A DNA stretch of 52,082 nucleotides from Silvanigrellaceae bacterium (GCA_049423385.1 JBMSQQ010000010.1:1-52082), one strand, 5' to 3'. Counted from the stretch's first letter, positions 23,191 to 42,625 are shown. Notes: a model not told the origin generated them from the letters alone. Translations and numbers: made by a program.

Positions 23191-23208
23191 TTGAACTTCA
23201 CCTCAACC

Positions 23209-24807: not shown

Positions 24808-24828
24808 GTTCTTTTGGTCCTTGCCTGT

Positions 24829-26385
24829 TCAGAGCGGAATGTTGCCGTGTTTTCTGCGCGGCAGGTTTTTGCGTTTGTTGGCATTCATTCGCAAAGCGTT
24901 GATGAGCGTTTTGCGCGTTTCCTTTGGCTCGATGATGTTGTCAATAAAGCCTTTCGAGGCCGCAACGTATGGATTCGCAAAGGTGTCGCGATAAGTCTCG
25001 ATCAGTTCCTTGCGCTTTGCCTCTGGATTTTGAGCTTGTGCGATTTCGTTCTTGAAGATGATGTTGCAAGCTCCCTCGGGGCCCATGACGGCAATTTCCG
25101 CAGATGGCCATGCGACATTCAAGTCGGCTCCAATGTGCTTGCTGTTCATCACATCATACGCTCCGCCATAGGCTTTGCGCGTGATGACTGTGAAGCGTGG
25201 TACGGATGCTTCGGAAAATGCGTAAAGCAGTTTTGCTCCGTGTTTGATGATTCCGCCGAACTCCTGGGCCGTCCCTGGAAGAAATCCGGGAACGTCGGTG
25301 AAGACAACCAGTGGGATATTGAAAGAGTCGCAGAAGCGCACGAAACGGGCACCCTTGATGCTGGCATTGATGTCCAGGACTCCCGCAAGCGCCATGGGAT
25401 TGTTTGCAACGACACCAACCGTCTGACCATTCAGGCGGGCAAATCCAATGATCAAGTTCTTTGCATACATCGGTTGGAGCTCAAGAAAAGAACCTGTATC
25501 CAGAACGCGCTTGATGACATCGTGCATGCTGTAGGGTTGGTTGGGATTGTTTGGGATGATTTGATTCAGTTCATCATCCGCACGATCCGGAGAGTCGGAG
25601 GTTGCAAGAACCGGAGCGGTTTCAAGATTGTTCTGCGGCAGGTATCCAAGCAGTTTTTTGACGAACTGGATGGTTTCATATTCGTCCGCGCAGGCAGCAT
25701 CCGCGACACCGCTTTTGATGTTGTGGGTCTCGGCGCCTCCCAGTGTTTCAAAGTCGATTTCTTCACCGGTGACTGTTTTGATAACGTCGGGGCCTGTGAT
25801 GAACATGTGCGACGAGTGTTGAGTCATGATAATGAAGTCGGTGATCGCGGGAGAATATACGGCACCTCCGGCACATGGACCCAGAATTGCGCTGATCTGG
25901 GGAATCACACCACTGGCCTGGGTGTTGCGATAGAAAATTTCAGCATAGCCACCCAAGCTTGCCACGCCTTCCTGGATGCGTGCTCCGCCACTATCGTTGA
26001 GGCCAACGACCGGTGCGCCATTTTGAACGGCAAGGTCCATTATTTTGCAGATTTTCCTTGCATGCATTTCAGAGAGACTGCCACCGAAAACAGTGAAGTC
26101 CTGAGCAAAAATGTAAACAGGTCTGCCGTTCACTTGCCCACAACCGGTGACAACACCGTCGCCCAGATATTTCTGGCCTTCCATGCCAAAGTCACTGCAG
26201 TTGTGAACAACAAAGGAATCAAATTCCACGAATGTTCCGGAATCGACAAATTCAGAAATTCTTTCGCGCGCAGTCATTTTGCCTTTTTTGTGCTGCGCCT
26301 CGATGCGCTTTGAACCGCCACCTTCAAGGGCCTTTGTTCTTTGAAGCTGCAGCTTTTCGATGGATTGCACTGTTGTGAGAGTCAC
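24829..26385 (-). CDS. pccB: Propionyl-CoA carboxylase carboxyltransferase (beta) subunit
   Basis: [51 protein letters not shown]. Confidence 0.93.
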
Positions 26386-27740: not shown

Positions 27741-27814
27741 AAAGTTCCTGATTCTCTCTGATATTTGGGACCATCGGAATCGAAGGCTAAAATTGTTCAA
27801 CCTTGGGGGTTCGT

Positions 27815-29701
27815 GTGATCAAACTCTCCGCAAGATGGTTAAAAAATGAACATCCGTTTGAGCTTGAATTCGAGGGCTACTCCGAAGAGCATCTTCACAC
27901 CCGAACTGGAGCTTCATCCGCGCCAGGAACTCCGAAAAGATACCATTCACCCAAAGATCTCGTTGCACTCGGAATTGCTGGCTGCACAGGGGTAGACGTC
28001 GTTTCGATTTTGGCAAAGATGCGTCAGCCTCTGGAGGCATTTGTTGTCGAAACCGAATTGACTCAAACAACGGAACATCCTCGGGTCTTCGACTCGTGCC
28101 GCCTGGTTTACCGATTGGCGGGCAGTCAGCTTGAGCCGGACCGGGTTGCCAGGGCGGTTGCACTTTCATACGGAAAATATTGTGGCGTGAGCGCCATGAT
28201 TAAAAAAAGCGGTTGCCATTTCGAACCACGGCTTTTCCTGAACGACCAGGACATAACGAACGATTTTGAACAGATATTGGCCGAAATTGTGCAGAGCGAA
28301 GTTCAATTGCGGGACGGAAAATCAAACGCAGCACTGCTCATCACGGGAAATGAAATACTATTTGGTAAAACCCAGGAAACCAATGGTCGTTTTCTGGCGC
28401 GAAATCTGATTTCTGCAGGTTTTGGGATTTCCGAATTGCGAGTGGTCGGAGATCAGTTTGCTCAACTTGCCGAAGCACTTCAAAGTTTGTTGCTGAAAAA
28501 CGACCTCGTCTTCATCACCGGCGGTTTGGGGCCAACCAAGGATGACCTCACGAGTGAAGTTGTTGCAAAGGTCGTTTCTGCGCCTTTGTCATTTTCGGAA
28601 GAGGCATGGAACGTTTGTTTGAGAGCCTTTGAGAGAATGGGGCGAAAGGAAGTTCCGGAAAGCAACAGAAAGCAGGCTTTGCTCCCTGAGGGAGCATTGG
28701 TGCTTGCGAATTCCCAAGGCACAGCTGCAGGATTCGTCGTCAATCATTTCGTTGATGGCAAGCCAAAAACAATTTGCGCCCTCCCAGGTGTGCCATGGGA
28801 ATGCGAAGAAATGTTCCAGAATGAAGTCAGGAGACTTCTTCCGAAATCAAAACAACGTATTCGTGAATGGGGACCCTGGAATATTTGGGGTGTTGGTGAA
28901 TCAGCTCTGCAGTCACTGATTGGGGAAACCGAATCCGCAATTCTCAAAAAATTGCCGCACGCGGAATTTTCGTTTCAGGCGCATGCGGGCTACGTGACCT
29001 ACGTCATTCGTTCCGAGTTTGATGATGAATCTGAAATGGATGTCGACCTGGCCGAGGAAGTTTCCAGCCTGGAGTCCTTGTTTGGCGACAGGCTTCTGTA
29101 CCGCAACGGTGCTCCATTGATTCCGCATTTGTTGTCTCTGGCGACGAACCTGGGTGTCTCACTCTCGTTGGCAGAATCATGCACGGGTGGACGAATTGCC
29201 TCTGAATTGACATCGGTTTCAGGTTCTTCGGAAGTCTTCTCTGGCGGTCTTGTTGCCTATTCAAATGAAGTCAAGAAATCGGCTTTGGGAGTGCAGCAGA
29301 CAACCCTTTCAGATTTTGGCGCCGTGAGCTTGCCTACGGCGGTCGAAATGGCAGCAGGATCTGCGCGACTATTCAACTCGAATGTCGCACTGTCCGTGAC
29401 CGGAATTGCAGGGCCAGGCGGCGGAACCGAAAGCAAGCCCGTGGGGACTGTCTGTTTTGCACTTTCCCTTGAGGGTCTGTTCAAGTCAGGGCGATTTGAT
29501 AAAATAACCATGTTGAACAACATGAGTCGATTGCAGGTCCAGGGTTGGAATTTGCAAGATGAAGACAAAATGATTTTGGCGGTTGAGAAAAGGTTCGGTG
29601 CATTTCTTGGCCGGGATATTGTTCAAAAGCGATCTGCACTTTTTGGTCTATGTTCGCTGCTTGCAGTTCTCGAAATATTGAGGAGTCCCGATTTTAAATG
29701 A
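27815..29701 (+). CDS. cinA: OsmC-like domain + CinA (COG1058 pyrophosphatase) + PncC NMN deamidase fusion
   Basis: PKDLVALGIAGCTG.DV and KYCGVS (OsmC); GNEIL.G...TN, TGGLGPT.DD.T, LPGVP.E; AESCTGG, YSNEVK, GAVS, TGIAGPGG..KPVG; start GTG 27815 or TTG 27803. Confidence 0.88.
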   Translation: MIKLSARWLKNEHPFELEFEGYSEEHLHTRTGASSAPGTPKRYHSPKDLVALGIAGCTGVDVVSILAKMRQPLEAFVVETELTQTTEHPRVFDSCRLVYRLAGSQLEPDRVARAVALSYGKYCGVSAMIKKSGCHFEPRLFLNDQDITNDFEQILAEIVQSEVQLRDGKSNAALLITGNEILFGKTQETNGRFLARNLISAGFGISELRVVGDQFAQLAEALQSLLLKNDLVFITGGLGPTKDDLTSEVVAKVVSAPLSFSEEAWNVCLRAFERMGRKEVPESNRKQALLPEGALVLANSQGTAAGFVVNHFVDGKPKTICALPGVPWECEEMFQNEVRRLLPKSKQRIREWGPWNIWGVGESALQSLIGETESAILKKLPHAEFSFQAHAGYVTYVIRSEFDDESEMDVDLAEEVSSLESLFGDRLLYRNGAPLIPHLLSLATNLGVSLSLAESCTGGRIASELTSVSGSSEVFSGGLVAYSNEVKKSALGVQQTTLSDFGAVSLPTAVEMAAGSARLFNSNVALSVTGIAGPGGGTESKPVGTVCFALSLEGLFKSGRFDKITMLNNMSRLQVQGWNLQDEDKMILAVEKRFGAFLGRDIVQKRSALFGLCSLLAVLEILRSPDFK

Positions 29702-31332: not shown

Positions 31333-34300
31333 TCATTGCGTGCTGCATTGCCAGTTGGCGTCAAAGTCCCGGATTTTGCCAATCGCTCGTTCAAATTCAA
31401 GCTCGTCGATGCTGATCACAAAGCGGAGGTGGCTTGGCAAACCCGTCCAGGTCGCATTGTTGAGCAGCAGGCCTGTTTCATTGAAAATCTTTTGAGCAAT
31501 TGAATCTGCGGCGCTGGTTTCATCGAATGCAATTTCCGAGTCCCATTTTGTTCGCAATCCTTCGAGATATTTTCTGGGAGATGCACAAACAAACAATCCA
31601 CCTTCAGGTTGAACCACGTCCCATCCGGTTTCTTCGAGCATTTTTATGAGCTGTTCGCTTCGTTTCTTGAGCACTTTTCGCTGTGAATCGAGGGTCACGT
31701 GTACTGGATGATTCGCTTCTGCCAAAGCTTGGTAGATCTTTCGGGCTGCGTAACGCGTCGTGGAGTGGGGCAGGGCGCTCTGTCGGCTCTTGATGCTCGC
31801 AACCAGTTGCTCAACTGGGCTCAGTGCCCATCCGAAGCGAAACCCGCCAGCGGCCAATTCTTTAGAGACACCTCCCATGAGTACGAAGGGAACTTTGGTG
31901 GTTCCTGCATTCATGAGGATTCTGTCCAAATTGAATTGTGAATGCAATTTATCAAATTCGAGGCCCGAAAAAATTGTATCGAGGATCAACCCACACTTGT
32001 GTTGTTGCAGCACTTCGGAAAGCTCCAGCATTTCCGAGCCGGAATAAATTGCTCCGGTTGGATTTACAACGGGCGCATTCAGGTACAGCCAATGAGCACC
32101 CGACAGCGACAACGTGTCGTCAAGTTGTTGCGGCGTCAACTTGAATCGATTGCGTTCGCTGGTCTTGGCTACAACGTGGTTGGTATTGAAAAAATGTGAA
32201 GCCGCAACGAAATGGCCATAGGCTCCACTGGGCATGATGATTTTTTCATTGTTGCCCGTGATGGTTTCGAGAAGGGCTGCAAAGATGGGCGCAACTCCGG
32301 TTCCCACGGCAACGGTCGAGGCAGGTACTTCCGCCAGGCCGAAACGGGAATTCACAAAATTGACAATGCTTTGTTCCACGCTGGTTTCTTGGCTTGAAAT
32401 GTTCTGCCGCAGGTATCCTTCGATGATTGCCGCATGAAGTTGTTCCGGACTCTTGAGGCAGTTTTCGCCGTAATCAAGCCGAATAGTGTTCTGGTTGAGT
32501 TCGAGACCATTGGTTTTAATTGCCGGATGATTGAATGCTGTGATCACGTGTGCCGGTGGCATTACTTCAGTTGAGAACTCTGATTCAGTTGGCAGACGAA
32601 GCACATCGCTCTTGCTGCGTCTGAGATCTGTCAGTTGAAAATTGAGAAGATCCGAGAAGATTCTCGAATAGTATTTTTGAGTCAAAAGTGGAGTTCTGCT
32701 GTACGAGAGTTCCGCAGCGGCAGACAATTGTTCAAGAAGCCTTGAGTTTTCAGAGAGAACAAAACTCAGTTCAAGATCCGAATAAACTTTGTTGCGCACG
32801 AGCCCACACAGCAAGGTCACATGAGCAGGCAATCGATTGTCTGCAATGTGAGACAAAATGCCATGGCCGGACGGCTGGCTTGAGAGTTCAAAGTGCTGAG
32901 AAATGTCGATGACAAGATGAGTTGAATTGACCGCGCAAATTTCGCAAAGTCGTGCGAACGCGTCATTCGTTCGGATCTCAAATTCCTGGAGGCTTGTAAT
33001 CACAAGTTGCGGCTTGAGCTTCTCGACAAGTTTCCCAACTTCATCCGCACGTCTGGGAGCCTCGAGAACAAATGGATTTCTGGCACCTTGGGATTCGGGA
33101 ATGAACCGTGTCTGAGTCACGTGTGTGCCCAATTCGCGGTCGATCAGGGCCACTGCAGGATTGAAGATTTGCAGAAAGTTCTTGATGACGCTCCTTCGAG
33201 TTGGAGCGATAAAGACGCTCTTTGCTGTGATTGGTACTTTCCAATAGCTGCGCAGGTATTGTGCAATTTGTCTACGCAGTTGAGGTTCACCCTCGGTGTC
33301 TGAATAAGGCAATCCAGGGTTCTTTTGCAGCCAATCTGCAATGTTTCCAATAAAGTTTATTTTTTCCTCGGCTATGTCATCACTGTTGAAGGACAAATCG
33401 AGGCCATTCCGTGAGTCTTCGAACCCACGTTGAGCGATCAGTTTGAACAGTGATTTGGTCGGGGCAGGATGTCTCAATGTCGCTTCGTAGACAATCAAAC
33501 TGTGAGATATTCTTCCTCCTGCTTTCGCATATGCATTCGCAGTTTGGGCGCAAATGGGCTCATCACTGGTCAAACTTGTGAAGAATTCAAATCGATGAGG
33601 CGAGCCTTTCTCAATCTCGACAAGTGGCTGGATATCTGTGTCTTCTGCTTGCCAAACCTTGGTGGACCATATTTTGCGGATAGCAAATCCGCGTCGTGTA
33701 AAAAGCCTGTCCAGGACTGCTGTTCCGGGACGTCCGCCCATGTTCAAAATGATTTTCGCAGATGGCTTGCAGACTTCTATGGACTCCTCGACTGCCCTTG
33801 CAATCAAGCCAAGACCAAATTGGTCTTCGATGTAGCCCTGCTTTTCGCAATAATTGCTCAATGCGTGCAGGTCGTGGTCGTTGGAGTCTTCGCTGACAAA
33901 ACTGCTTGCCATGAGTGGCTCAGGGCTCAGAACCTGCGGAATACAGCCAATGACTCGATCGAGTTGAATCGATTTTTCAATCATGAATCCAAGCAAATCC
34001 GAGACATGAAACTCGACCCTGTCGAGCAGGCATTTTCCATCCGCGTCAATCCTGGGAGTACCAGAATCATCAAGCGCATTGAGAACAAGATTGATGCGTG
34101 CGCAGGTGATGGCACGTGGATTGATGTCCAGTCCGTAAATTTTCTGGGGTAGATTTTTTTGCGCGAGCGCAATCGATATCCAACCATTGCCGCAACCCAA
34201 TTCAGCAATCAGGCGACCCTGAAACTCGGTGGCAGGATATCTTGCGAGCCCTTCGAAGAATGTGAATGACCAATCCTCGGGGGTGAAAATGCTTGGAAGT

Positions 34301-34563
34301 TGAAGGAGCCTCAGCTGTTGACCCGCGGGGTTGTGGCCATCGAGCGTCAGGATGGCAAAAGAGAAGTGGTACTTGTGAACAAAGTCCTCAGTTCCTTCAT
34401 CCATCTCGTCACAATGTCTTATAAGTTGTGAAAGGAATCGACGGACCTGCGAGAGCTTTTCTGGTGTTGAGCCAAAGTCGAGCAAACTTTTCAGGGCGTC
34501 ATATGCTGCATGACTCGATTCTGAGCAACGCTCCAAAAAATCAATCGGACTTGAGAATCCCAT
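31333..34563 (-). CDS. Plant-type methionine S-methyltransferase (SAM methyltransferase + PLP aminotransferase-fold domains)
   Basis: PSIFTPEDWSFTFFEGL, AELGCGNGWISIAL, GLDINPRA, GCIPQVL.P, EDQFGLGLIARAVEE, NMGGRPG; 1076 aa; C-terminal NPTG, LILD, SK..AGG.RFG. Confidence 0.88.
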   Translation of the reverse strand: MGFSSPIDFLERCSESSHAAYDALKSLLDFGSTPEKLSQVRRFLSQLIRHCDEMDEGTEDFVHKYHFSFAILTLDGHNPAGQQLRLLQLPSIFTPEDWSFTFFEGLARYPATEFQGRLIAELGCGNGWISIALAQKNLPQKIYGLDINPRAITCARINLVLNALDDSGTPRIDADGKCLLDRVEFHVSDLLGFMIEKSIQLDRVIGCIPQVLSPEPLMASSFVSEDSNDHDLHALSNYCEKQGYIEDQFGLGLIARAVEESIEVCKPSAKIILNMGGRPGTAVLDRLFTRRGFAIRKIWSTKVWQAEDTDIQPLVEIEKGSPHRFEFFTSLTSDEPICAQTANAYAKAGGRISHSLIVYEATLRHPAPTKSLFKLIAQRGFEDSRNGLDLSFNSDDIAEEKINFIGNIADWLQKNPGLPYSDTEGEPQLRRQIAQYLRSYWKVPITAKSVFIAPTRRSVIKNFLQIFNPAVALIDRELGTHVTQTRFIPESQGARNPFVLEAPRRADEVGKLVEKLKPQLVITSLQEFEIRTNDAFARLCEICAVNSTHLVIDISQHFELSSQPSGHGILSHIADNRLPAHVTLLCGLVRNKVYSDLELSFVLSENSRLLEQLSAAAELSYSRTPLLTQKYYSRIFSDLLNFQLTDLRRSKSDVLRLPTESEFSTEVMPPAHVITAFNHPAIKTNGLELNQNTIRLDYGENCLKSPEQLHAAIIEGYLRQNISSQETSVEQSIVNFVNSRFGLAEVPASTVAVGTGVAPIFAALLETITGNNEKIIMPSGAYGHFVAASHFFNTNHVVAKTSERNRFKLTPQQLDDTLSLSGAHWLYLNAPVVNPTGAIYSGSEMLELSEVLQQHKCGLILDTIFSGLEFDKLHSQFNLDRILMNAGTTKVPFVLMGGVSKELAAGGFRFGWALSPVEQLVASIKSRQSALPHSTTRYAARKIYQALAEANHPVHVTLDSQRKVLKKRSEQLIKMLEETGWDVVQPEGGLFVCASPRKYLEGLRTKWDSEIAFDETSAADSIAQKIFNETGLLLNNATWTGLPSHLRFVISIDELEFERAIGKIRDFDANWQCSTQ

Positions 34564-34691: not shown

Positions 34692-35846
34692 ATGCCAGCT
34701 GAATCTAAGTTTGCTTTTGTTGTGAACCGGTTTTTAAACAGGTTTGTCTGCAAGACTCGGATCATAACAGTGGCAGTCGTGGCAGCTGCCGCGGGTTCAG
34801 GCAAAACGGCCCGGGCCCAGCCGGCTCCCGGCGCGGCATCTTCGGCAGCCAACTCTCCAAAAGACTTTGCGGGTGCGCAAGGGGCGAATTCGGGCACTTC
34901 CCAGTCTGTCACGGGCTCATTACCGGTCGGAGGCTCCAGCGAGAGCCCGCTTCATACCGTTGCGCCGTCTTCACTTTTGAACTTGCGTCTTCATCCTGCA
35001 ACTCTGCCATTGGAAGCTGAAGTGTCATGTTCGCTTTTGTTTGGCTGTCAATTGGGCCTCAGTCGCGGCTTTTCGGTGGGTGGAGACGCGCTCAAAACCC
35101 TTGGCGTGACAACGTTGGGTCAACACTTCTATGGTCCAGGTGCGTGGGCATATCTGGACGTAAATGTGGGATACCAGTTTCTCCGTTTGGCAGAGCGGCA
35201 ATCCAGCTTGATGGGCGCGTTCGGTTATCGCACTTTCAGCTACAAAAACTCAGAGGGGGCAAAATTCGGCCGTTCGGGCATGGCCTTCCGCACGGCTTAC
35301 GCGGAGTCCGTATTTCCTGCATATACTCAGGGAATGGTGTTTGAGGCCTTTTCGTCGCCCCTTCAGACCGAGGGCGGCGCCGATCAACCCTTCAATCCAT
35401 CCGATGAGAGAAAGGTGAGAAGCAGTCTGGTCAGGGAATTTGCTCAGTTCATGCGGAGCAATCCGCTACTTCGACTGCAGATGCCGGCCGATCTTGAAAT
35501 CATCAATTGGAGTCCGTCACAGGTTGACCTGCCCGGAGCCATGCGGGGATACTTGCGAATTTCTCCATCCTATGAGCAGACAGATTTGGTGATTCGAAGT
35601 GGTGACCAAGACATTTTTAGTTGGATAGAAAAGCGTTTTGCGCTGCAACTTATGCTAATGACGACCTACGCGTCGCCCGAGGAGCGTTCCGGTCGCTTGG
35701 GGTTGTTGGGCGGTCTGGGATTTGAAATGGCTGCTACAAAATCAAGCGTTGAATCAAAATCCACCCGGTCCGAATTGATTCCAACAATACCCTCTGCCCC
35801 CCTTGTTCAAGGAAAGCTAGAAATTCAAGGGACCTGGCAGTTCTAA
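34692..35846 (+). CDS. Exported hypothetical protein, probable outer-membrane beta-barrel
   Basis: Signal-like N-terminus ending ARA-QP; low-complexity linker; C-terminal beta-signal LEIQGTWQF. Confidence 0.6.
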   Translation: MPAESKFAFVVNRFLNRFVCKTRIITVAVVAAAAGSGKTARAQPAPGAASSAANSPKDFAGAQGANSGTSQSVTGSLPVGGSSESPLHTVAPSSLLNLRLHPATLPLEAEVSCSLLFGCQLGLSRGFSVGGDALKTLGVTTLGQHFYGPGAWAYLDVNVGYQFLRLAERQSSLMGAFGYRTFSYKNSEGAKFGRSGMAFRTAYAESVFPAYTQGMVFEAFSSPLQTEGGADQPFNPSDERKVRSSLVREFAQFMRSNPLLRLQMPADLEIINWSPSQVDLPGAMRGYLRISPSYEQTDLVIRSGDQDIFSWIEKRFALQLMLMTTYASPEERSGRLGLLGGLGFEMAATKSSVESKSTRSELIPTIPSAPLVQGKLEIQGTWQF

Positions 35847-35966
35847 TAAGTTGTAAGAATCTCGCTTGCGCTGCCTTCAGCTTTGTATTAAGCGAATCGA
35901 CTCACGTTCGGAAACAGCCGATTTCGCGCTGCAACTCTGAACAAGTTGTGAATAGGAAGGTTGCCA

Positions 35967-36389
35967 ATGGCAAAGAAAATTGTTGGTCTCATCAAGCTCC
36001 AGATTACCGCTGGACAGGCCACAGCGGCTCCACCAATCGGTCCAGCCCTGGGTCAACGCGGTGTCAACATCGCGATGTTCGTTAAGGAATTCAACGCCCG
36101 CACGCAAAAACAGGCAGGCACAATCCTCCCGACGATCATCACTGTCTACTCAGACAAGTCGTTTACATTCATCACCAAGACGCCACCTGCGACGGTTCTT
36201 CTGAAGCAGGCTGCCAAGATTCAGTCGGGAAGCAAGACCCCGGGCAAGGCGCTGTGCGGTTCTGTAACGGAAAAGCAGGTTGAGGAAATCGCCAAAACCA
36301 AGCTCCCCGACTTGAACTGCTATGACGTGGAAACAGCGAAGCGCCTCATCAAAGGCTCAGCTCGTTCCATGGGACTCGAAGTCAAGTAA
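35967..36389 (+). CDS. rplK: 50S ribosomal protein L11
   Basis: [36 protein letters not shown]. Confidence 0.97.
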
Positions 36390-36402
36390 TCAAAATTTAT
36401 TT

Positions 36403-36433
36403 TGAGGGAGGCTACAGGGCCGTTTGAACCTCA
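36403..36433 (+). promoter_or_regulatory. Probable L1-binding autoregulatory RNA element between rplK and rplA
   Basis: TGAGG-GAG-GC...GCC-GTTTGAA-CCTCA hairpin with a GGAG internal loop, directly before the rplA SD. Confidence 0.6.
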
Positions 36434-36444
36434 GGAGTTGAATC

Positions 36445-37137
36445 ATGAAAAAGATTGGAAAGAAGCTTTCTGAAGCTCGTAAAAAAGTGAACGCCGACAA
36501 GCGTTACTCACTCACCGAAGCTGCTTCTCTGTTGAAAGAAGTCAGCTACTCGAAGTTCGACGGCACTGTTGAAGTTGCCATGAACCTCGGTGTTGACCCT
36601 CGTCACGCGGACCAAAACGTACGTGGTGCTGTTGTCCTTCCCAACGGCCTTGGCAAGAAGGTTCGCGTGTTGGTTTTCGCCAAGGGCGAGAAAATCAAAG
36701 AAGCTGAAGAAGCAGGTGCAGACTTTGTTGGCGGTGATGACATCGCTCAGAAGATTCTCGGTGGTTGGCTCGATTTTGAAGCCGCTGTCGCCACTCCCGA
36801 TATGATGGGTGTTGTGGGCCGCCTTGGTAAGATTCTTGCTCCCCGTGGTTTAATGCCGAACCCTAAAGTCGGAACGGTGACCATGGATCTCCGTACTGCT
36901 GTCAAAGATGCCAAAGCTGGTCGTGTTGAATTCAAGGTCAACAAAGCCGGTATTATCCAGGCTCCTGTCGGCAAGACCTCTTTTGCTCCAGCAGCAATTG
37001 AAGAAAATCTCAAAGCTTTCGTCGAGGCAATTTTGAAGGCCAAGCCTTCAGCTGCAAAGGGAACTTACGTCAAGTCTGCATACGTCAGCGCGACGATGAG
37101 CCCAAGCCTCCGCCTCGACACGACCGAAATGAAGTAA
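36445..37137 (+). CDS. rplA: 50S ribosomal protein L1
   Basis: [26 protein letters not shown]. Confidence 0.97.
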
Positions 37138-37149
37138 TCGTTTTTTCGT

Positions 37150-37240
37150 GGGTCGAAGACTGCTGGTGCTCGATGGTTCGAGGTAAACCCCGCATAGACT
37201 AAGACCCCCTTTTTAGTCACCCGACGACGAAAGTCGTCAA
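37150..37240 (+). promoter_or_regulatory. L10 leader (autoregulatory RNA)
   Basis: GGGTC-GAAGACTGCTGG...CCCCGCATAGAC...GACCC pattern upstream of rplJ, followed by GACGAC-GAAA-GTCGTC hairpin. Confidence 0.7.
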
Positions 37241-37258
37241 AGTTGAAGGGAGGTTCGA

Positions 37259-37777
37259 TTGGATAGGAATGCCAAAGTCGCCTGGCGCGACGACGTGGTC
37301 AAATACCTAGACAAGTCGTCCGCGCTGTTTTTGGCGCAATATCAGGGCATGACAGTTGAGGAGCTGACCGAATTGCGTCGCGCTCTTAAGGCTGCCAATG
37401 CCGAATTCCGCGTCGTGAAAAACACGATTGCCAAGAAGGCGATTGAGGGTCGTCAGGAAAGCGTTATCGCTTCCGACCTCAAGAACCAAACGGGCATTGT
37501 GTTCGTATTCGGCGATGTTGCAGCGGCTGCCAAGGCATTTACCGAAGCTTCGAAGAAAAACGAGAAGCTGAAGGTTGTGTCTGGCTACATGGAAGCTTCA
37601 AAATTGGGCTCCAAACAGATCGAAGCTTTGGCTTCGCTTCCTTCTCGGGAAGTTCTGTTGGCCAAGATTTTGGGATCTTTGGTTGCACCACACCGTGGCA
37701 TGTTGGGCGTCGTTCAGGGCGTTCCACGCGCATTGGTCAGTGTGTTGAACCAAATCAAGGAAACCAAGTCTGCTTGA
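37259..37777 (+). CDS. rplJ: 50S ribosomal protein L10
   Basis: YQGMTV.ELTELR, VVKNT, LASLPSRE.LLA; TTG start behind GGGAGG. Confidence 0.95.
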   Translation: MDRNAKVAWRDDVVKYLDKSSALFLAQYQGMTVEELTELRRALKAANAEFRVVKNTIAKKAIEGRQESVIASDLKNQTGIVFVFGDVAAAAKAFTEASKKNEKLKVVSGYMEASKLGSKQIEALASLPSREVLLAKILGSLVAPHRGMLGVVQGVPRALVSVLNQIKETKSA

Positions 37778-37834
37778 TTTGTTGTTAACGTTAACTATTT
37801 GAAACTAATAGATTTTTAATAGGGAGTCTTAATT

Positions 37835-38212
37835 ATGTCGACTATCACTAAAGAGCAATTCATTGAATACATCAAGGGCCTCACTCTGATCCAAGCTGCT
37901 GAGCTCGTTAAAGAACTCGAAGAAATCTTCGGCGTTTCTGCTGCTGCTCCTGTTGCTGTTGCTGCTGTTGCTGGCGCTGCTGCTCCAGCTGCTGAAGCTC
38001 AGACCGAGTTCGAAGTCATCCTCAAGGCTGGCGGCGACAAGAAGCTCGACGTCATCAAGGAAGTTCGCGCTCTGACAGGCTTGGGCCTCAAGGAAGCCAA
38101 GGACCTCGTTGAAGGCGCTCCAAAGAGCCTCAAGGCTGGCGTGACCAAGGCTGAAGCTGAAGATATCAAGAAGAAGCTCACAGCTGCTGGCGCAACTGTT
38201 GACATCAAGTAA
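37835..38212 (+). CDS. rplL: 50S ribosomal protein L7/L12
   Basis: [33 protein letters not shown]. Confidence 0.97.
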
Positions 38213-38253
38213 TAGCCTCGAGTGGGGGATGACTCCGCTCAAGGTTTACTGAA

Positions 38254-38290
38254 GCAAGCCAACCGAATCTCTCGGTTGGCTTGACTTTTG
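38254..38290 (+). terminator. Terminator/attenuator hairpin between rplL and rpoB
   Basis: CAAGCCAACCGA-ATCTC-TCGGTTGGCTTG followed by ACTTTT; its 3' end overlaps a candidate promoter TTGACT-N16-TAAGTT (38281-38308). Confidence 0.6.
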
Positions 38291-38393
38291 CTATTAGGAA
38301 GATAAGTTTCGGCCTACATGCGCAAAAAGGCCCCACCGATGTGGGCCGGGCCCAATTGTGATTTTGGATCAGTAACGTAACGAGGTCCTCTTT

Positions 38394-41300
38394 ATGTCTA
38401 ATATGGCATCTAGTTTTGTTCGCCATCGGAGAAACTTTGCAAAGGTCCATCCGATTATCGGCATGCCTAATCTAATTGACATTCAAAAGAGGTCGTACGC
38501 CGAATTCCTCCAGGGTGTTGAGACAGCTGACACGAGAAGCGAAATTGGGCTTCAAGGCGTGTTCAAGAGTGTCTTCCCTGTCATGGATTTCGACAAGACG
38601 GCTTCTGTTGAATTTGTCAGTTACTCTCTCGACGAGTCGAAATACACTGTCGAAGAGTGCCGTTCAAAAGGTATGACTTATGCAGCGCCAATCAAGGTGC
38701 TCATCCGTCTGCTGATTTGGGACGTCGATCACGAGACCGGTGTCAAATCGATTCGTGGTTTCAAGGAGCAGGAAGTTTACTTTGGTGAAATTCCTCTCAT
38801 GACCGAAAACGGAACGTTCATCATCAATGGTACCGAGCGAGTTGTCGTGTCGCAGCTTCACCGTTCGCCCGGTGTGTTTTTTGATCACGACAAAGGCAAG
38901 ACTCTCTCGTCAGGAAAGCTTCTCTATAATGCTCGTATCATTCCTTACCGCGGTTCGTGGTTGGATTTTGAATTCGACACAAAAGACATTCTCTATTGCC
39001 GTATCGACAGACGTCGCAAAATGCCTGCAACGATTCTGCTCAAGGCACTCGGATACACAACAGAAGAATTGCTCAACCACTTCTATGAGCGTGAAACTAT
39101 CGTCCTGAAAGACGGAAAGTTCATGCGCAAGGTTGATTGGAAATTCCTCGGCAGCAAACGCGCTCCGTCGGATATCATCGATCCAAAGTCGGGCGAAGTT
39201 CTGGTCAAGCGCAACCGCAAGATCACCGCAAAGGTGGTTCGTCAAATGCAGGCTGCCAACGTGGACGCGTTGCCGATGACTGACGAAGAAGTCAGCAAGA
39301 AAATCATTGCGCGCGACATTGTTGATGAAGATACTGGTGAAGTGCTTTTCCCGGTCAATACGGAATTGGCGAAACCAGTTCTCGAGCAAGTCAAACTTCA
39401 GAATATTTCGAAGTTCGAAGTTCTGTTTATCGACGACGTGAACGTCGACTCGTCGTTCCGCGACACGCTGAACGCCGACAAAACCGCAAACCAGGAAGAA
39501 GCGCTCATCGAAATCTACAAGCGCATGCGTCCTGGTGATCCACCAACTTTGGACAATGCGAGCCAACTTTTCGACAACCTCTTCTTTGTCAAAGAGCGCT
39601 ACGACCTCTCCCGCGTTGGTCGTATGAAGTTGAACGAAAAGCTTGGGCTTGCTGAAAAGATCGACATCGATCATCGCACGCTGACGCGTGAAGACATTCT
39701 TGGCACCGTCAAGATGCTGCTCGCAGTTCGCGCCGGAACTGAAGTGGTCGATGATATCGACCACCTTGGTAATCGTCGTGTGCGTGCCGTTGGTGAATTG
39801 CTCGAGAACCAATACCGTATCGGTCTCACCAGAATTGAACGGGCCATTCGCGAGCGTCTGCAGCTTCAGGACCTCGACAGCCTGATGCCTCACGACCTTG
39901 TGAATGCGAAGCCTGTGACGGCTGTCGTCAAAGAATTCTTTGGCTCTTCTCAGCTGAGCCAGTTCATGGACCAAACCAACCCGCTTGCAGAAGTTTATCA
40001 CAAGCGCCGCTTGTCGGCCCTTGGACCAGGCGGTCTGTCGCGTGAGCGCGCAGGTTTCGAAGTCCGTGACGTTCACCCGACGCACTACGGACGTATCTGT
40101 CCAATTGAAACGCCTGAAGGTCCAAACATTGGTCTTATCGTCTCGCTTGCATCATATGCTCGCGTGAACCAATACGGATTTATCGAAACTCCTTATCGTG
40201 AAGTTGCTGATCGCAAACCAACGGATGGCGTGCGCTACTATTCATCAACAGATGAATGGCGTGATCACACCATTGCTCAGGCAAACGTGGGCCTCGACAA
40301 GTCGAAGGCGATTCCGACCAACCAGCTCATCAACACCCGCCGTGCCGGCGAAACAACAATGGCTTCGGGTGAAGAAGTTGACCTTATCGACGTTGCTGCA
40401 AACCAGCCGGTGTCGGTTGCTGCGTCGCTGATTCCGTTCCTCCAGAACGACGACGCCCACCGCGCGCTGATGGGTGCCAACATGCAACGCCAGGGTCTGC
40501 CACTTCTCAGAACCCGTGCGCCTTTGGTTGGTACTGGCATGGAGCGTAAAGTTGCATCCGACTCGGGAGTGACTGTCGTTGCCAAACGTTCAGGCACTGT
40601 CATCCGCGTTGACGCAGAGCGTATCGTTGTGAAGGCCAACGACGGTGCTGCAGATGCGACTGAAGTTGCTTCGGAAGTCGATATCTACAACTTGGTCAAA
40701 TATCAGCGTTCCAACGTTGATACTTGCATCAACCAGCGTCCAATTGTGAAGGTCGGCGAGCTTGTTGAAGCCGGCGACATCATCGCAGACGGTTTCTCGA
40801 CCGAAATGGGTGAGCTCGCGCTGGGACAGAACGTGGTTGTCGCGTTCATGCCTTGGCAAGGTTACAACTTTGAGGATGCGATCGTTGTCTCTGAGCGAGT
40901 CGTGAAAGACGACCTCTATACGTCGATCCACATCCAGGAATTCGAATGTGTCAGCCGTGACACCAAGCTGGGACGCGAGGAAATCACCTCCGATATTCCG
41001 AACGTGGGTGAAGAAGCGCTCAAGAACCTCGATGACGCCGGTGTTGTTCGCATTGGTGCAGAGGTAAAGCCTGGCGATATTCTGGTTGGTAAGTTGACTC
41101 CTAAGGCTGAAACCCAGTTGACACCTGAAGAGAAGCTCCTGCGCGCAATCTTCGGTGAGAAGGCTGCAGACGTTCGCGACACATCGCTGCGCGTTCCGCC
41201 TGGAGTTGTGGGTACGGTCATTGGTGCGAAAGTTTTCTCGCGTGAAGGCGCAGAGCCCGACAGCCGTATGCAGGCAGTCCAGGAACAAGAAATTGCGAAA

Positions 41301-42569
41301 CTCCGCAAGGACGAGCGCGATCGTATCGAGATTATCCGTCAGTCGGCATTGGAAAAGCTCCGTGCCATGATGGTTGGCGAAACAGCTGCAGTTGCGGTTG
41401 AGACCCAACACGATGGCGTCAGCCACAAGGTTGCCGCTGGTCAGAAGATCACTGAGCAGGCATTCCTGGGCATGTCGATTGACCAAATCCGCAAGCTGGA
41501 AGTTGTCAGTCCTGAAAAGAGCAGCACGCTTTCGAAAATCAAGAAGTCCATGGATGCAAAATTGAACCTCGTACACGCCATGACCGAAGAACAAATCGGC
41601 CGCGTGAAGCGCGGTGATGAACTGCCTCCAGGCGTCATCAAGATGGTCAAGGTCTATGTGGCAATCAAGCGTCGTCTCCAGGTGGGTGACAAGCTCGCTG
41701 GACGTCACGGTAACAAGGGTGTGATCTCAAAAATCGTGCCAGTTGAAGATTTGCCATTTCTCGAAAACGGACAGCCTGTCGACATCGTGTTGAGCCCGCT
41801 CGGCGTGCCTTCACGTATGAATATCGGTCAGGTCATGGAAACCCACTTCGGTTGGGCAGCTCGTGGCATTGGCGAGAAGATCAACGACATGCTCGACAAG
41901 GCCGCTCCGCGCGAAGAACTTGAAGCATACCTCTTGAAGGTTTGGGACGACGAGGGTGTCCGCAAGTTCATCAAGGGGTGCAGCAACGAAGAATTGCGTC
42001 ACTTTGTGCGAAAATACCGCGAGGGTGTGACACTCTCGAACCCGGTTTTCGATGGAGCCGAAGAGCGCGAAGTGTTCGATTACCTCAAGCTTGCAGGGCT
42101 TCCTGAAAGCGGACAGGTTGAACTCTATGATGGACGCTCAGGCGAGAAGTTCGACCGTCCGGTCACCGTCGGTGTCATGTACATCCTGAAACTTCACCAC
42201 TTGGTGGACGAGAAGATCCATGCCCGTTCGATTGGACCATACAGCCTTGTGACTCAGCAGCCCTTGGGCGGTAAGGCGCAATTCGGTGGTCAGCGTCTGG
42301 GTGAAATGGAAGTGTGGGCAATGGAAGCGTACGGAGCGGCTTACACTCTGCAGGAATTCCTGACCGTCAAGTCGGATGACATCGTTGGCCGCACAAAGAT
42401 GTACGAAGCAGTCGTGAAGGGAGAGAATATGATGCTCCCCGGTCTGCCTGAGTCGTTCAACGTCTTGGTCAAGGAAATGCAGTCACTCGCTCTCGATGTG
42501 AAATTGATCAGAGAAGGCGAAGAGGTCAGCCATGAAGACCTCCAACGTGAACAGAGGGAAACCCCATAA
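38394..42569 (+). CDS. rpoB: RNA polymerase beta subunit
   Basis: [49 protein letters not shown]. Confidence 0.99.
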
Positions 42570-42625
42570 GGGTTTTTCCTCGGTTGAATCGTGTATGATG
42601 AATTCTTCGCCTCTAGGAGCTTAAG

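What the first reader, a model, noticed from the sequence alone, without database searches (positions are those of the whole stretch)
31333..34563. Full-length plant-type methionine S-methyltransferase whose PLP domain looks catalytically intact
Seen: a 1076-aa ORF with MMT/MmtN methyltransferase motifs, then a degenerate aminotransferase-like segment (YSDTEGEPQLRRQIAQYL...SVFIAP), then a complete fold-type-I PLP domain. That domain has NPTG, LILD, SKELAAGGFRFG (Lys901, codon at 31861-31863) and a terminal LRF arginine. Established: plant MMT makes S-methylmethionine, while most bacterial producers use the short MmtN as the first step to DMSP. From my recollection, plant MMTs lack the equivalent Schiff-base Lys. 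Inference: this protein may be an ancestral bifunctional enzyme that methylates Met and then transaminates or decarboxylates SMM in one chain, with the two PLP-fold modules forming an intramolecular pseudo-dimer. No other DMSP-pathway genes are visible nearby. Bacterial plant-like MMTs are not unknown, so the novelty lies in the PLP activity.
Basis: partly seen in the sequence, partly recalled or inferred. Interest (0 to 1): 0.8.

Follow-up and report, generated by a model that had tools for sequence, protein, structure and literature searches.

The report
Bacterial plant-type MMT with intact PLP site
This gene encodes a bacterial version of the plant enzyme that makes S-methylmethionine, and unlike the plant enzymes it keeps a complete vitamin-B6 (PLP) active site, so it may carry out a second, still unknown reaction.

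Summary
The protein is a typical member of the bacterial "Group III" plant-type methionine S-methyltransferase (MMT) family and is 40% identical, end to end, to Selaginella MMT.

It has three parts:
- an MmtN-like SAM methyltransferase domain;
- a degenerate aminotransferase-fold middle module (hhalign 98.1% to the C-terminal module);
- a complete class-I aminotransferase module.

Lys901 is present in 174 of 180 non-plant homologues and in 69 of 69 named bacterial genome loci that cover the site. It is present in 0 of 123 plant MMTs. Plants have also mostly lost the phosphate-binding Arg, the ring-stacking Tyr and the GEN loop, yet they keep 57 of 58 conserved methyltransferase columns.

A complex prediction (ipSAE 0.89, best control 0.00) pairs the two PLP-fold modules as a pseudo-dimer. 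In it, middle-module Tyr420 and the Arg623 loop touch the Lys901 site. Lineages that lost Lys901 also lost Arg623.

The intact PLP site is therefore a trait of the whole bacterial family, not of this genome. PLP binding is well supported. Catalysis and the substrate are only inferred. No conserved partner genes or DMSP genes lie nearby. I found no paper in the held library that mentions this difference.

The parts
31333..34563 (-). Whole gene: bacterial Group III (plant-type) methionine S-methyltransferase homologue, 1076 aa plus stop
   Evidence: 40% identity over 1089 alignment columns to Selaginella MMT.
34327..34563 (-). N-terminal helical region (residues 1-79) ahead of the methyltransferase core
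   Evidence: Helices 6-65 in the AF2 model. Aligns with plant MMT from residue 9.
33469..34326 (-). MmtN-like class-I SAM methyltransferase domain (about residues 80-365). Includes GxGxG G123/G125/G127 (34183-34197), D146 (34126-34128) and C207 in GCIPQV (33943-33945).
   Evidence: 7vvv MmtN, E 9.6e-11. D146 and C207 align with the MmtN SAM ligands Asp69 and Cys121 named in PMC9135737. 57 of 58 bacterial-conserved columns are kept in plants.
32494..33441 (-). Middle module (residues 375-690): degenerate fold-type-I aminotransferase-like domain. It has no Schiff-base Lys (R590 in its place), no NPTG Asn and no phosphate Arg.
   Evidence: hhalign against the C-terminal module: 98.1%, E 9e-14. 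A profile of 24 bacterial middle modules against the PDB: all 11 hits at E<=1 are fold-type-I PLP proteins, best 2zc0 at E 7.4e-4.
33304..33306 (-). Tyr420 in the PYxxxxGxxxLR motif. Predicted to reach into the C-terminal module's PLP site, in the role of the partner-subunit Tyr of aminotransferase dimers.
   Evidence: Invariant in 50 of 50 and 70 of 70 covering loci. Aligns with the Tyr of Y-x-x-x-x-G-x-x-x-LR in 2zc0. Predicted contacts 420 with 906/907.
32695..32697 (-). Arg623 in the YSRTP loop of the middle module. Predicted part of the composite active site.
   Evidence: R in 176 of 180 non-plants and 10 of 123 plants. Lost together with K901 in P0153, P0195, P0238 and Mesostigma P0280. 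Loop 618-628 is in the predicted interface; residues 624-626 contact R909 and 625-627 contact G907.
31336..32493 (-). C-terminal module (residues 691-1076): complete class-I aminotransferase fold
   Evidence: Pfam PF00155, E 6.7e-32. Foldseek top hits are aspartate, prephenate and aromatic aminotransferases, TMt 0.76-0.85.
32461..32469 (-). G699-E700-N701, the equivalent of the GEP(DF) substrate loop of subgroup-Ib aminotransferases
   Evidence: Aligned to GEPDF of 6f77. At least 96% conserved in non-plants; D/Q/S in most plants.
32296..32298 (-). Gly756 in GTGVAP, aligned with the GTGGKQ stretch of 6f77 (recalled as the PLP phosphate-binding loop)
   Evidence: Aligned to GTGGKQ of 6f77. G in 179 of 180 non-plants and 0 of 123 plants.
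32218..32220 (-). Tyr782, aligned with the Trp of 6f77 (recalled as the residue that stacks on the PLP ring)
   Evidence: Aligned to the Trp of ...PyW... in 6f77. Y in 173 of 180 non-plants; N in 117 of 123 plants.
32062..32064 (-). Asn834 of NPTG (PLP O3' ligand position)
   Evidence: alignment. N in 174 of 180 non-plants and 95 of 123 plants.
31978..31980 (-). Asp862 (PLP pyridine-N ligand position)
   Evidence: alignment. D in 177 of 180 non-plants and 122 of 123 plants.
31969..31971 (-). Phe865 at the position of the conserved Tyr of DEVY. This is the one departure from the canonical aminotransferase set.
   Evidence: Aligned to the Y of 'DEvY' in 4my5. F in 172 of 180 non-plants and 106 of 123 plants.
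31861..31863 (-). Lys901, the predicted Schiff-base lysine
   Evidence: Aligned to the SK of 4my5 and 6f77. K in 174 of 180 non-plants, 69 of 69 covering bacterial genome loci and 0 of 123 plants.
31837..31839 (-). Arg909 (PLP phosphate ligand position)
   Evidence: Aligned to the R of GwRlG. R in 176 of 180 non-plants and 8 of 123 plants.
31423..31425 (-). Arg1047 (substrate alpha-carboxylate ligand position)
   Evidence: Aligned to the R of 'nfRis' in 6f77. R in 176 of 180 non-plants and 118 of 123 plants.

Best explanation
The gene encodes an ordinary member of the bacterial Group III (plant-type) methionine S-methyltransferase family, in a genome that is probably Silvanigrellaceae.

Inferred from homology: the N-terminal MmtN-like domain uses SAM to methylate L-methionine to S-methylmethionine (SMM), as plant MMT and MmtN do.

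Shown in silico: the C-terminal 700 residues are two fold-type-I PLP modules that arose by internal duplication. The first is degenerate and the second is complete. They pack as an intramolecular pseudo-dimer, so one polypeptide forms a single composite PLP site. Lys901, Asp862, Asn834, Arg909, Tyr782, Gly756, the GEN loop and Arg1047 come from the C-terminal module. Tyr420 and the Arg623 loop come from the middle module.

Shown by conservation: this site is under strong constraint across bacterial phyla. It decayed in streptophytes and in a few other lineages, while the methyltransferase part stayed intact.

Inferred: the site binds PLP (my estimate about 0.8) and is catalytic (about 0.55). 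The most likely activity is that of an aminotransferase with an alpha-amino-acid substrate and a dicarboxylic co-substrate (about 0.45). It would act either on SMM made by the N-domain (about 0.2-0.25) or on 4-methylthio-2-oxobutanoate to supply the methionine that the N-domain methylates (about 0.2-0.25). On this reading plant MMT is a descendant whose PLP half became a pseudoenzyme scaffold.
For: Family membership:
- 40% identity over the full length to Selaginella MMT.
- 686 homologues at E<=1e-3 among the 8000 candidates scored.
- 284 confirmed stretches among 185,579 species genomes, in Silvanigrellaceae, Bdellovibrionota, Bacteriovoracaceae, Kangiellaceae, cyanobacteria, Thermoanaerobaculia, Bacteroidota and Myxococcales.

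Methyltransferase domain:
- Matches MmtN 7vvv at E 9.6e-11, with D146 and C207 on the SAM ligands Asp69 and Cys121.
- 57 of 58 columns that are >=95% conserved in non-plants are kept in plants.

PLP site:
- K901, N834, D862, G756, Y782, R909 and R1047 are invariant in 50 of 50 diverse representatives, at identities down to 28%.
- K901 is present in 69 of 69 covering named bacterial loci and in 0 of 123 plants.
- 10 of 28 conserved C-module columns are lost in plants. Of these, G699-E700-N701, G756, Y782, K901, R909 and F991 align with active-site motifs of solved aminotransferases.

Fold and architecture:
- The nearest solved folds are true transaminases, TMt 0.76-0.85.
- The internal duplication is supported by hhalign at 98.1% and by an independent PDB profile search of the middle module.
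- Pseudo-dimer prediction: ipSAE 0.89 (three runs, 0.89-0.90) against a best control of 0.00. The runs agree in at least 93% of contacts and the partner's pLDDT is at least 76. That mark was reached by 116 of 157 solved complexes and 2 of 215 mismatched pairs. The interface includes 416-421 and 618-628 against 700, 755-756, 782-784, 900 and 903-909.
- The full-length AF2 model has pLDDT 90.0 and pTM 0.88.

Linked loss: P0153, P0195, P0238 and the streptophytes each sit beside Lys-bearing sisters in the tree. They lost K901 together with middle-module R623, and the first three also lost Y420.

Precedent: C. elegans CBS-1 has an inactive N-terminal and an active C-terminal PLP module in one monomeric chain (abstract of PMC3316156).
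Against: - No biochemical evidence exists for PLP binding or for any second activity.
- F865 replaces the Tyr of the DEVY motif in 172 of 180 non-plants. From recollection, the equivalent mutation slows aspartate aminotransferase strongly.
- No NCBIfam aminotransferase model comes near its cut-off: best 91 bits against 617. No specific subfamily can be assigned.
- No neighbouring gene is conserved beyond 15 of 72 loci, and those 15 carry low locus numbers (L009 onward), the part of the list that holds the Silvanigrellaceae-like records. Context therefore gives no pathway.
- Only 1 of 4 bacterial strains with Group III MMT made DMSP, and the authors could not predict a role for SMM there (passages of PMC9135737).
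- The complex prediction may reproduce memorised aminotransferase homodimers, and I could not inspect coordinates.
- Conservation of the PLP residues would look the same for a non-catalytic PLP sensor.
- The MmtN Met-binding residues Glu127 and Arg132 did not align with like residues here (S213, M218), although that stretch of the alignment is gappy.
Confidence: 0.6

Rival explanations
1. PLP-dependent sensor or scaffold. The C-terminal pseudo-dimer binds PLP and perhaps an amino-acid effector as an external aldimine, as the aminotransferase-like domain of MocR/GabR regulators does. It tunes or scaffolds the methyltransferase without turning substrate over.
For: Plants keep the whole 700-residue half after losing the PLP site: 8 of 9 conserved middle-module columns and 16 of 28 C-module columns are retained. 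The half therefore has a PLP-independent role for the methyltransferase. F865 at the Tyr position could mark weakened catalysis. A MocR-type PLP protein (7pq9) and a MocR-like NCBIfam model appear among the weak hits. There are no pathway neighbours.
Against: The full catalytic and substrate set is conserved, not only the PLP ligands: the GEN loop, R1047, F991, Y782, plus R623 and R695. The nearest solved structures are active transaminases. There is no DNA-binding or other output domain.
Confidence: 0.2
2. Sulfonium-directed lyase. S-methylation turns the poor methylthio leaving group into dimethylsulfide. The PLP site then performs gamma-elimination, gamma-substitution or cyclisation on SMM, as ACC synthase does on SAM. 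The products would be DMS plus 2-oxobutyrate and ammonia, homoserine or ACC.
For: ACC synthases are class-I aminotransferase-fold enzymes that act on a sulfonium, and they appear among the structural matches (1b8g, 1ynu, E about 1e-17). The methyltransferase is fused to a PLP module, and this route needs no other pathway gene. It fits the absence of DMSP in 3 of 4 tested strains. From recollection, ACC synthase turns SMM over by beta,gamma-elimination.
Against: True transaminases score better than ACC synthase in every search. Two extra invariant arginines, R623 and R695, suit a dicarboxylic co-substrate better than a cationic sulfonium. I could not make a residue-level comparison with ACC synthase.
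Confidence: 0.12
3. One reading: the PLP site transaminates or decarboxylates SMM to DMSP-aldehyde or 4-dimethylsulfonio-2-oxobutyrate. This would give a one-protein entry into DMSP synthesis.
For: Consecutive-step logic of a fusion. The PLP site is intact. The title of Rhodes et al. 1997, seen only in the reference list of PMC11464771, points to an unusual transamination in the conversion of SMM to DMSP, and PMC5557254 names an SMM transaminase-decarboxylase among higher-plant DMSP enzymes. One Group III MMT strain, Pseudobacteriovorax antillogorgiicola, does make DMSP.
Against: 3 of 4 tested strains made no DMSP. Many hosts are freshwater or soil lineages (record titles). The SMM decarboxylase assayed in PMC11464771 was tested alongside ornithine, diaminopimelate and arginine as substrates, which by my recollection marks a different PLP fold. 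A cationic substrate sits poorly with the invariant R623 and R695.
Confidence: 0.22
4. The PLP site is a non-functional relic in this protein too: it binds no cofactor and the residues are conserved only by chance or for fold stability.
For: No direct evidence of PLP binding. F865 departs from the canonical set.
Against: Seven PLP-site residues are invariant in 50 of 50 sequences at identities down to 28%. K901 is present in 69 of 69 covering loci across several phyla. The same residues decay quickly wherever Lys901 is lost, which shows that they are not needed for the fold.
Confidence: 0.05

Closest known systems
Plant methionine S-methyltransferase (MMT; Group III of Peng et al. 2022), for example Selaginella moellendorffii XP_024516277.1 (P0132)
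   Same: Collinear over the full length (40% identity). Same three-part architecture. The methyltransferase columns are almost fully shared (57 of 58). D862, R1047 and F865 are shared.
   Different: Plants lack the Schiff-base Lys (0 of 123). Most also lack R909 (8 of 123 keep it), Y782 (at most 3 of 123), G756 (0 of 123), the GEN loop and R623. The plant PLP half therefore looks like a pseudoenzyme, while this protein keeps a complete site.
Bacterial Group III 'plant-like' MMT noted in Deltaproteobacteria and Oligoflexia (Peng et al. 2022, PMC9135737, citing Williams et al. 2019), for example the Pseudobacteriovorax antillogorgiicola protein (P0093)
   Same: Same family and architecture. P0093 is 42% identical over 94% of the query. 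Also not linked to DMSP genes.
   Different: Nothing substantive: this gene is a further member. 'PLP' does not occur in the main text of that paper, so the state of the PLP site is not discussed there. Its supplementary alignment could not be seen.
MmtN, the short bacterial Met S-methyltransferase (PDB 7vvv)
   Same: Homologous methyltransferase core (E 9.6e-11). GxGxG is shared, as are the equivalents of the SAM ligands Asp69 and Cys121.
   Different: MmtN is a single-domain chain of 305 residues that forms trimers. It lacks the 700-residue PLP-fold half.
Subgroup-Ib aspartate, prephenate and aromatic aminotransferases (1bjw, 6f77, 4my5, 8wou)
   Same: Best sequence and fold matches of the C-terminal module. 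The Lys, Asp, Asn and phosphate Arg, the carboxylate Arg and the GE(P/N) loop are all aligned.
   Different: These enzymes are homodimers with two sites. Here one chain supplies a dead partner module and a single site. There is Phe instead of the DEVY Tyr. The position aligned with the K of GTGGKQ in 6f77 (recalled as the side-chain-carboxylate Lys) is A758. The module is fused to a methyltransferase.
C. elegans CBS-1 (tandem PLP modules; PMC3316156, abstract read) and the Ser4/Ser5 hetero-oligomeric aminotransferase (PMC11726168, abstract start in a search listing only)
   Same: An inactive, Lys-less or PLP-less module pairs with an active PLP module. In CBS-1 both lie in one monomeric chain.
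   Different: CBS-1 is fold type II, is not fused to another enzyme and is unrelated in sequence. Ser4 and Ser5 are two separate proteins.
MocR/GabR-type regulators
   Same: A fold-type-I aminotransferase-like domain that retains the PLP Lys and is fused to a domain of another function. This is a possible model for a sensing role.
   Different: No winged-helix DNA-binding domain is present here. The fusion partner is an enzyme.

Membership tests
MMT (Group III, plant-type methionine S-methyltransferase) | N-terminal class-I SAM methyltransferase domain homologous to MmtN, with GxGxG | tested here: met
   G123-C-G125-N-G127. Pfam methyltransferase hits over 116-166. 7vvv at E 9.6e-11.
MMT (Group III, plant-type methionine S-methyltransferase) | Full-length collinear similarity to experimentally studied plant MMTs | tested here: met
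   432 of 1089 columns identical to Selaginella MMT, query residues 9-1067. The plant clade lies within the same family tree.
MMT (Group III, plant-type methionine S-methyltransferase) | About 115-kDa architecture: methyltransferase plus a C-terminal aminotransferase-like region | tested here: met
MMT (Group III, plant-type methionine S-methyltransferase) | SAM- and Met-binding residues defined in MmtN (Asp69, Cys121; Glu127, Arg132, Glu250) | tested here: inconclusive
   D146 and C207 align with Asp69 and Cys121. Glu127 and Arg132 fall on S213 and M218 in a gappy stretch, and Glu250 lies beyond the aligned part.
MMT (Group III, plant-type methionine S-methyltransferase) | Catalyses Met + SAM -> SMM + SAH | not testable with these tools
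   Needs an enzyme assay.
Class I/II aminotransferases (fold-type-I PLP enzymes, PF00155) | Profile match above the curated threshold | tested here: met
   111.5 bits against a cut-off of 19.7, residues 692-1064.
Class I/II aminotransferases (fold-type-I PLP enzymes, PF00155) | Schiff-base Lys, pyridine-N Asp, O3' Asn, phosphate Arg and alpha-carboxylate Arg | tested here: met
   K901, D862, N834, R909 and R1047 align with solved enzymes and are invariant in 50 of 50.
Class I/II aminotransferases (fold-type-I PLP enzymes, PF00155) | Tyr that hydrogen-bonds PLP O3' (the Y of D-E-V-Y) | tested here: not met
   F865 aligns there. F in 172 of 180 non-plants.
Class I/II aminotransferases (fold-type-I PLP enzymes, PF00155) | Dimer in which the partner subunit's Tyr (Y-x-x-x-x-G motif) completes the site | tested here: inconclusive
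   The C-terminal module has no conserved Tyr at that motif (consensus). Middle-module Y420 carries the motif and is predicted to contact residues 906-907. This is a prediction only.
Class I/II aminotransferases (fold-type-I PLP enzymes, PF00155) | Membership of a named equivalog (AspAT, AlaAT, DapC and so on) | tested here: not met
   Best NCBIfam score is 91.4 bits against a cut-off of 617. None of the 25 families shown comes near its cut-off.
Class I/II aminotransferases (fold-type-I PLP enzymes, PF00155) | Binds PLP and transfers amino groups | not testable with these tools
   Needs spectroscopy and assays.
MmtN (short bacterial Met S-methyltransferase) | Single-domain protein of about 300 aa | tested here: not met
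   1076 aa with two further modules.
MocR/GabR PLP-sensing regulators | N-terminal winged-helix DNA-binding domain fused to the aminotransferase-like domain | tested here: not met
   No HTH family in Pfam. The N-terminus is a methyltransferase.

The most novel reading that the evidence does not exclude
Bacterial plant-type MMTs are two-activity enzymes. The N-domain makes the sulfonium SMM. A single composite PLP site, built by an intramolecular pseudo-dimer of a dead and a live aminotransferase module, then processes it by transamination-decarboxylation towards DMSP-aldehyde or by gamma-elimination that releases DMS. One protein would thus convert methionine into a DMSP precursor or into DMS. 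Plant MMT would be the pseudoenzyme descendant, which would explain its long-puzzling C-terminal half.
Probability: 0.3. Interest if true: 0.8.

Novelty: new variant of a known kind. Interest (0 to 1): 0.6.

Why it matters
Plant MMT has been known since 1999 (publication date as in the reference list seen) as a methyltransferase with an unexplained aminotransferase-like C-terminal half. Bacterial Group III MMTs are on record with no predicted role for their SMM (PMC9135737).

The comparison made here gives a concrete, testable account. The bacterial proteins keep a complete, strongly constrained PLP site that is completed by a second, dead module in the same chain. Streptophytes lost that site while keeping the scaffold.

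If the site is catalytic, there is an undescribed PLP reaction tied to SMM or methionine in at least eight bacterial groups named in the genome record titles, with possible bearing on DMS and DMSP budgets. Plant MMT would then become a clear case of enzyme-to-pseudoenzyme decay. If the site is not catalytic, it would be a PLP-sensing enzyme regulator of a new type.

Either way the point concerns the whole family. This particular gene is a typical member in a housekeeping neighbourhood.

Tried and rejected
- Gene context. Pfam scan of 18 neighbouring ORFs: downstream lies a cytidylate-kinase-like gene; upstream lie a divergent 384-aa ORF with no family and then rplK-rplA-rplJ-rplL-rpoB-rpoC. 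There are no Met, SMM or DMSP genes.
- Neighbour clustering. I clustered 468 neighbouring ORFs (up to 4 on each side) from 72 genome loci. The most widespread cluster occurs in only 15 of 72 loci, and those carry the low locus numbers that hold the Silvanigrellaceae-like records. No cross-phylum partner emerged.
- Riboswitch or leader RNA. No Rfam family anywhere in the window at gathering thresholds.
- Longer MMT-like proteins (1212-1796 aa) as a clue to the pathway. In the 12 scanned, only methyltransferase families and PF00155 were found, and the first methyltransferase match starts between residues 354 and 741, so the N-terminal extensions carry no Pfam family.
- Earlier findings of this scan. 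Nothing by sequence, words or place.
- Literature in the held library. Searches found no paper that links MMT with the state of its PLP lysine. Bourgis et al. 1999, Williams et al. 2019 and Rhodes et al. 1997 are not held, and supplements are closed. I therefore cannot exclude that the plant Lys loss or the bacterial retention was remarked on there.
- Plant sequences. The first ten representatives I looked up were not plants. The second look-up found Selaginella, Closterium and Mesostigma.
- SMM cycle as the whole explanation. The genome does hold a YitJ-like homocysteine S-methyltransferase/MTHFR fusion and a MetH-like frame, so an SMM cycle is possible. That does not account for the conserved PLP site.

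Full report
**Observation.** The minus-strand ORF at 31333..34563 is 1076 aa long. An RBS-like GGAAGAGG lies upstream of the ATG.
- Pfam finds a class I/II aminotransferase domain over residues 692-1064 (E 6.7e-32) and SAM-methyltransferase families around residues 116-166.
- phmmer against all solved chains aligns the C-terminal part with class-I aminotransferases. It places S900-K901 on their SK, N834 on NPTG, D862 and F865 on the D and Y of DEVY, R909 on the phosphate-binding Arg position, G699-E700-N701 on GEP(DF), Y782 on a conserved Trp of the solved enzyme, G756 on the GTGGKQ stretch, and R1047 on the C-terminal Arg.
- The same search aligns residues 93-320 with MmtN 7vvv.

**What family it is.**
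- The word-indexed search found 686 homologues at E<=1e-3 among the 8000 candidates scored. Nearly all of the best 120 are near full length at 41-80% identity, apart from the two truncated entries P0003 and P0050. Several carry the source name 'methionine S-methyltransferase' or come from Silvanigrella, Fluviispira, Pseudobacteriovorax, Bacteroidota, cyanobacteria or Acidobacteriota.
- The exhaustive representative search found 2463 proteins at E<=0.001 and 156 at E<=1e-30.
- Cluster look-ups showed that representative P0132 is Selaginella moellendorffii MMT. It aligns with the query over residues 9-1067 at 40% identity.
- A scan of one genome per prokaryotic species found 284 confirmed stretches, of which 72 distinct loci were kept. 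They come from Silvanigrellaceae, Bdellovibrionota, Bacteriovoracaceae, Kangiellaceae, Pleurocapsales-type cyanobacteria, Thermoanaerobaculia, Bacteroidota and Myxococcales. The closest records (58-66% identity) are titled Silvanigrella, Silvanigrellaceae, Oligoflexia or unclassified Pseudomonadota, so the window is probably from Silvanigrellaceae.
- In the window's own lineage a strong match is present in 12 of 12 genomes of the genus (one only as a contig-end fragment, one in two pieces). It is present in 8 of 12 other genomes of the family and in 1 of 16 further genomes of the class.
- Passages of Peng et al. 2022 (PMC9135737) already state that some Deltaproteobacteria and Oligoflexia hold a plant-like MMT with the same dual-domain structure (their Group III). 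They report that only one of four such strains made DMSP, that the gene is not linked to DMSP, NRPS or Met genes, and that the role of SMM there is hard to predict.
The gene is therefore a new member of a family whose existence is known.

**The lysine test.** I aligned the 303 proteins of 950-1200 aa held at that point. The other 96 of 399, fragments and long forms, were left out. I split the proteins by the search that brought them in, not by the trait. There are 123 from the Selaginella-seeded search, and the named ones are all land plants. There are 180 others including the query; a few of these are eukaryotic, for example a rotifer protein and Mesostigma.

| Position | Non-plants (n=180) | Plants (n=123) |
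|---|---|---|
| K901 | 174 | 0 (L 60, F 38, T 7, S 7, others 11) |
| R909 | 176 | 8 |
| Y782 | 173 | at most 3 (N in 117) |
| G756 | 179 | 0 |
| N834 | 174 | 95 |
| D862 | 177 | 122 |
| R1047 | 176 | 118 |

- In 71 named bacterial genome loci with a match, K901 is present in 69 of the 69 that cover the site.
- In 50 diverse representatives, at identities down to 28%, Y420, G425, R623, R695, D697, E700, N701, G756, Y782, N834, D862, K901, G907, R909 and R1047 are all invariant.
- A column-by-column contrast is clean. Of 58 methyltransferase-domain columns that are >=95% conserved in non-plants, 57 are kept in >=80% of plants and none is lost. Of 28 such columns in the C-terminal module, 16 are kept and 10 are lost: R695, G699, E700, N701, G756, Y782, K901, R909, L990 and F991. 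Most of these fall on motifs that align with active-site stretches of solved aminotransferases.

**The middle segment.** hhalign of residues 375-690 against 691-1076, using 50-row sub-alignments, gives 98.1% probability, E 9e-14, over 208 columns. The middle module has R590 where the C-terminal module has K901. It has no Asn or phosphate-Arg equivalents, so it is a dead duplicate. As an independent check I searched the PDB with a profile of 24 bacterial middle modules. All 11 hits at E<=1 are fold-type-I PLP proteins. The only one below 1e-3 is 2zc0 at E 7.4e-4. That hit matches the Y-x-x-x-x-G-x-x-x-LR-x-x-(L/I)A motif, which puts Y420 on the motif's Tyr.

**Pseudo-dimer.**
- The full-length AlphaFold2 model is confident and compact: mean pLDDT 90.0, pTM 0.88.
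- Foldseek finds only single-module matches, so no full-length MMT structure is in the PDB copy (TMq at most 0.32). The best matches are aspartate, prephenate, aromatic, alanine and kynurenine aminotransferases. ACC synthase ranks lower.
- A complex prediction of the C-terminal module with the middle module scored ipSAE 0.89 (three runs, 0.89-0.90) against a best control of 0.00. The runs agree in at least 93% of contacts and the partner's pLDDT is at least 76. That mark was reached by 116 of 157 solved complexes and 2 of 215 mismatched pairs. The tool notes that these counts hold only roughly because my own alignment was used.
- The confident interface contains middle-module 416-421 (with Y420) and 618-628 (with R623). 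On the other side it contains C-module 700, 755-756, 782-784, 900 and 903-909, which is the PLP site itself.
- Solved aminotransferase dimers look like this, so the pass may reflect that likeness. It shows that the two modules can be modelled as such a dimer, not that they bind.

**Independent support for a composite site.** R623 of the middle module is R in 176 of 180 non-plants and 10 of 123 plants. Three lineages lost K901 separately from plants, and each has a Lys-bearing sister in the tree: P0153 beside P0131, P0195 beside P0174, and P0238 beside P0173. Each also lost R623 and Y420. Mesostigma, sister to land plants, lost K901, R623, Y782 and R909. P0110 is an exception: K is replaced by Q and everything else is intact. 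Overall, 168 of 180 non-plants keep both the methyltransferase and the PLP residue sets, while 123 of 123 plants keep the first and lose the second.

**Evolution.** I chose 76 rows for a FastTree tree: the 50 representatives, 14 extras and 12 plants. The root is at the midpoint, and the program warned of long branches and uneven composition. Land plants plus Mesostigma form one clade (SH-like support 98) nested among Lys-bearing bacterial sequences. The module descends from real aminotransferases, so the Lys-bearing state is ancestral and the streptophyte state is derived. The direction of transfer between bacteria and streptophytes is not settled by this tree.

**Context.** The gene sits among housekeeping genes.
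- Downstream on the same strand is a cytidylate-kinase-like gene.
- Upstream are a divergent 384-aa ORF with no family and then rplK-rplA-rplJ-rplL-rpoB-rpoC.
- Further off are propionyl-CoA-carboxylase-like genes and meaB.
- Across 72 loci no neighbour is shared by more than 15.
- No Rfam element is present.
- The genome holds a YitJ-like homocysteine S-methyltransferase/MTHFR fusion and a MetH-like frame, so SMM could be recycled to Met.

**Mechanism.**
- Shown: the architecture, the residue set, its constraint in bacteria and its repeated joint decay elsewhere.
- Inferred: the N-domain makes SMM, given near-complete sharing of conserved columns with plant MMT and the alignment of D146 and C207 with the MmtN SAM ligands. 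The composite site binds PLP (my estimate 0.8) and turns substrate over (0.55).
- Why an aminotransferase: the best matches are true transaminases. An alpha-carboxylate Arg and a GE(N) loop point to an alpha-amino acid. Two further invariant arginines were lost in plants. One of them (R623) comes from the partner module on a loop that, by my recollection, corresponds to the loop contributing partner-subunit residues in aspartate aminotransferase. Both would suit a dicarboxylic co-substrate. I therefore favour an aminotransferase (0.45).
- I cannot separate action on SMM from supply of Met out of 4-methylthio-2-oxobutanoate.
- F865 in place of the DEVY Tyr and the lack of any equivalog assignment leave room for other chemistry, or for a GabR-like sensing role.
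- A sulfonium-directed lyase is chemically attractive, because methylation creates a good leaving group. It is less supported by similarity.

[quoted passage not shown] 'PLP' does not occur in the main text of Peng et al. 2022. Bourgis et al. 1999, Williams et al. 2019 and Rhodes et al. 1997 are not held, and supplements are closed, so prior mention cannot be excluded. Tandem dead-plus-live PLP modules have a precedent in C. elegans CBS-1 (abstract of PMC3316156). I could not inspect model coordinates. Statements about the roles of individual aminotransferase residues rest on textbook knowledge that I recalled, joined to the alignments.

**Verdict.** The gene is a typical bacterial Group III MMT. 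The interesting point, an intact and constrained composite PLP site that plants have lost, belongs to the whole bacterial family and is experimentally untested.

Noticed in passing
window 34692-35846 (+): A 384-aa ORF divergent from the MMT gene, with no Pfam family. A homologue lies next to MMT in 15 of 72 genome loci, apparently only in Silvanigrellaceae-like records.
   Followed up: partly
proteins P0204, P0215, P0219, P0232, P0240, P0244, P0247, P0228, P0222, P0237, P0241, P0230: MMT-like proteins of 1212-1796 aa at 26-29% identity. Their first methyltransferase match starts between residues 354 and 741, and nothing in Pfam matches the N-terminal extension. Their origin and the role of the extension are unknown.
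   Followed up: partly
P0001 residue 590 (window 32794-32796, minus strand) and its alignment column: This middle-module position is the one hhalign equates with Lys901. It is Lys in 117 of 123 plants but varies in non-plants (K 81, R 36, N 22, H 15 of 180). Plants thus conserve a Lys in the dead module while lacking it in the other.
   Followed up: no
protein P0110 compared with P0119: Two close cyanobacterial-type sequences differ at the Schiff-base position (Gln against Lys), with all other PLP-site residues intact. This could be a recent loss or a sequencing error.
   Followed up: no
protein P0083 (Rotaria sp.): A rotifer-labelled MMT homologue keeps the full bacterial-type PLP residue set and groups with Bacteroidota-like sequences in the tree. 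This could be horizontal transfer or contamination.
   Followed up: no
G000 contig C80, L002:7-1896 (-): A YitJ-like fusion of homocysteine S-methyltransferase and MTHFR (629 aa). It is a possible SMM-consuming partner for an SMM cycle. A MetH-like 1187-aa frame lies on contig C1.
   Followed up: partly
window 27803-29701 (+): A 632-aa ORF that combines OsmC-like, MoCF_biosynth and CinA domains. The N-terminal OsmC fusion to CinA looks unusual.
   Followed up: no
window 24532-26313 (+) and 24829-26385 (-): The 593-aa plus-strand ORF has no family and overlaps a carboxyltransferase gene (E 1e-201) on the other strand. It is most likely a shadow ORF. With the biotin carboxylase, the biotin carrier and MeaB at 21617-24807, this looks like a propionyl/methylmalonyl-CoA cluster.
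   Followed up: partly
window 35961-46819 (+): An rplK-rplA-rplJ-rplL-rpoB-rpoC block, yet no Rfam ribosomal-protein leader was detected at gathering thresholds anywhere in the window.
   Followed up: no
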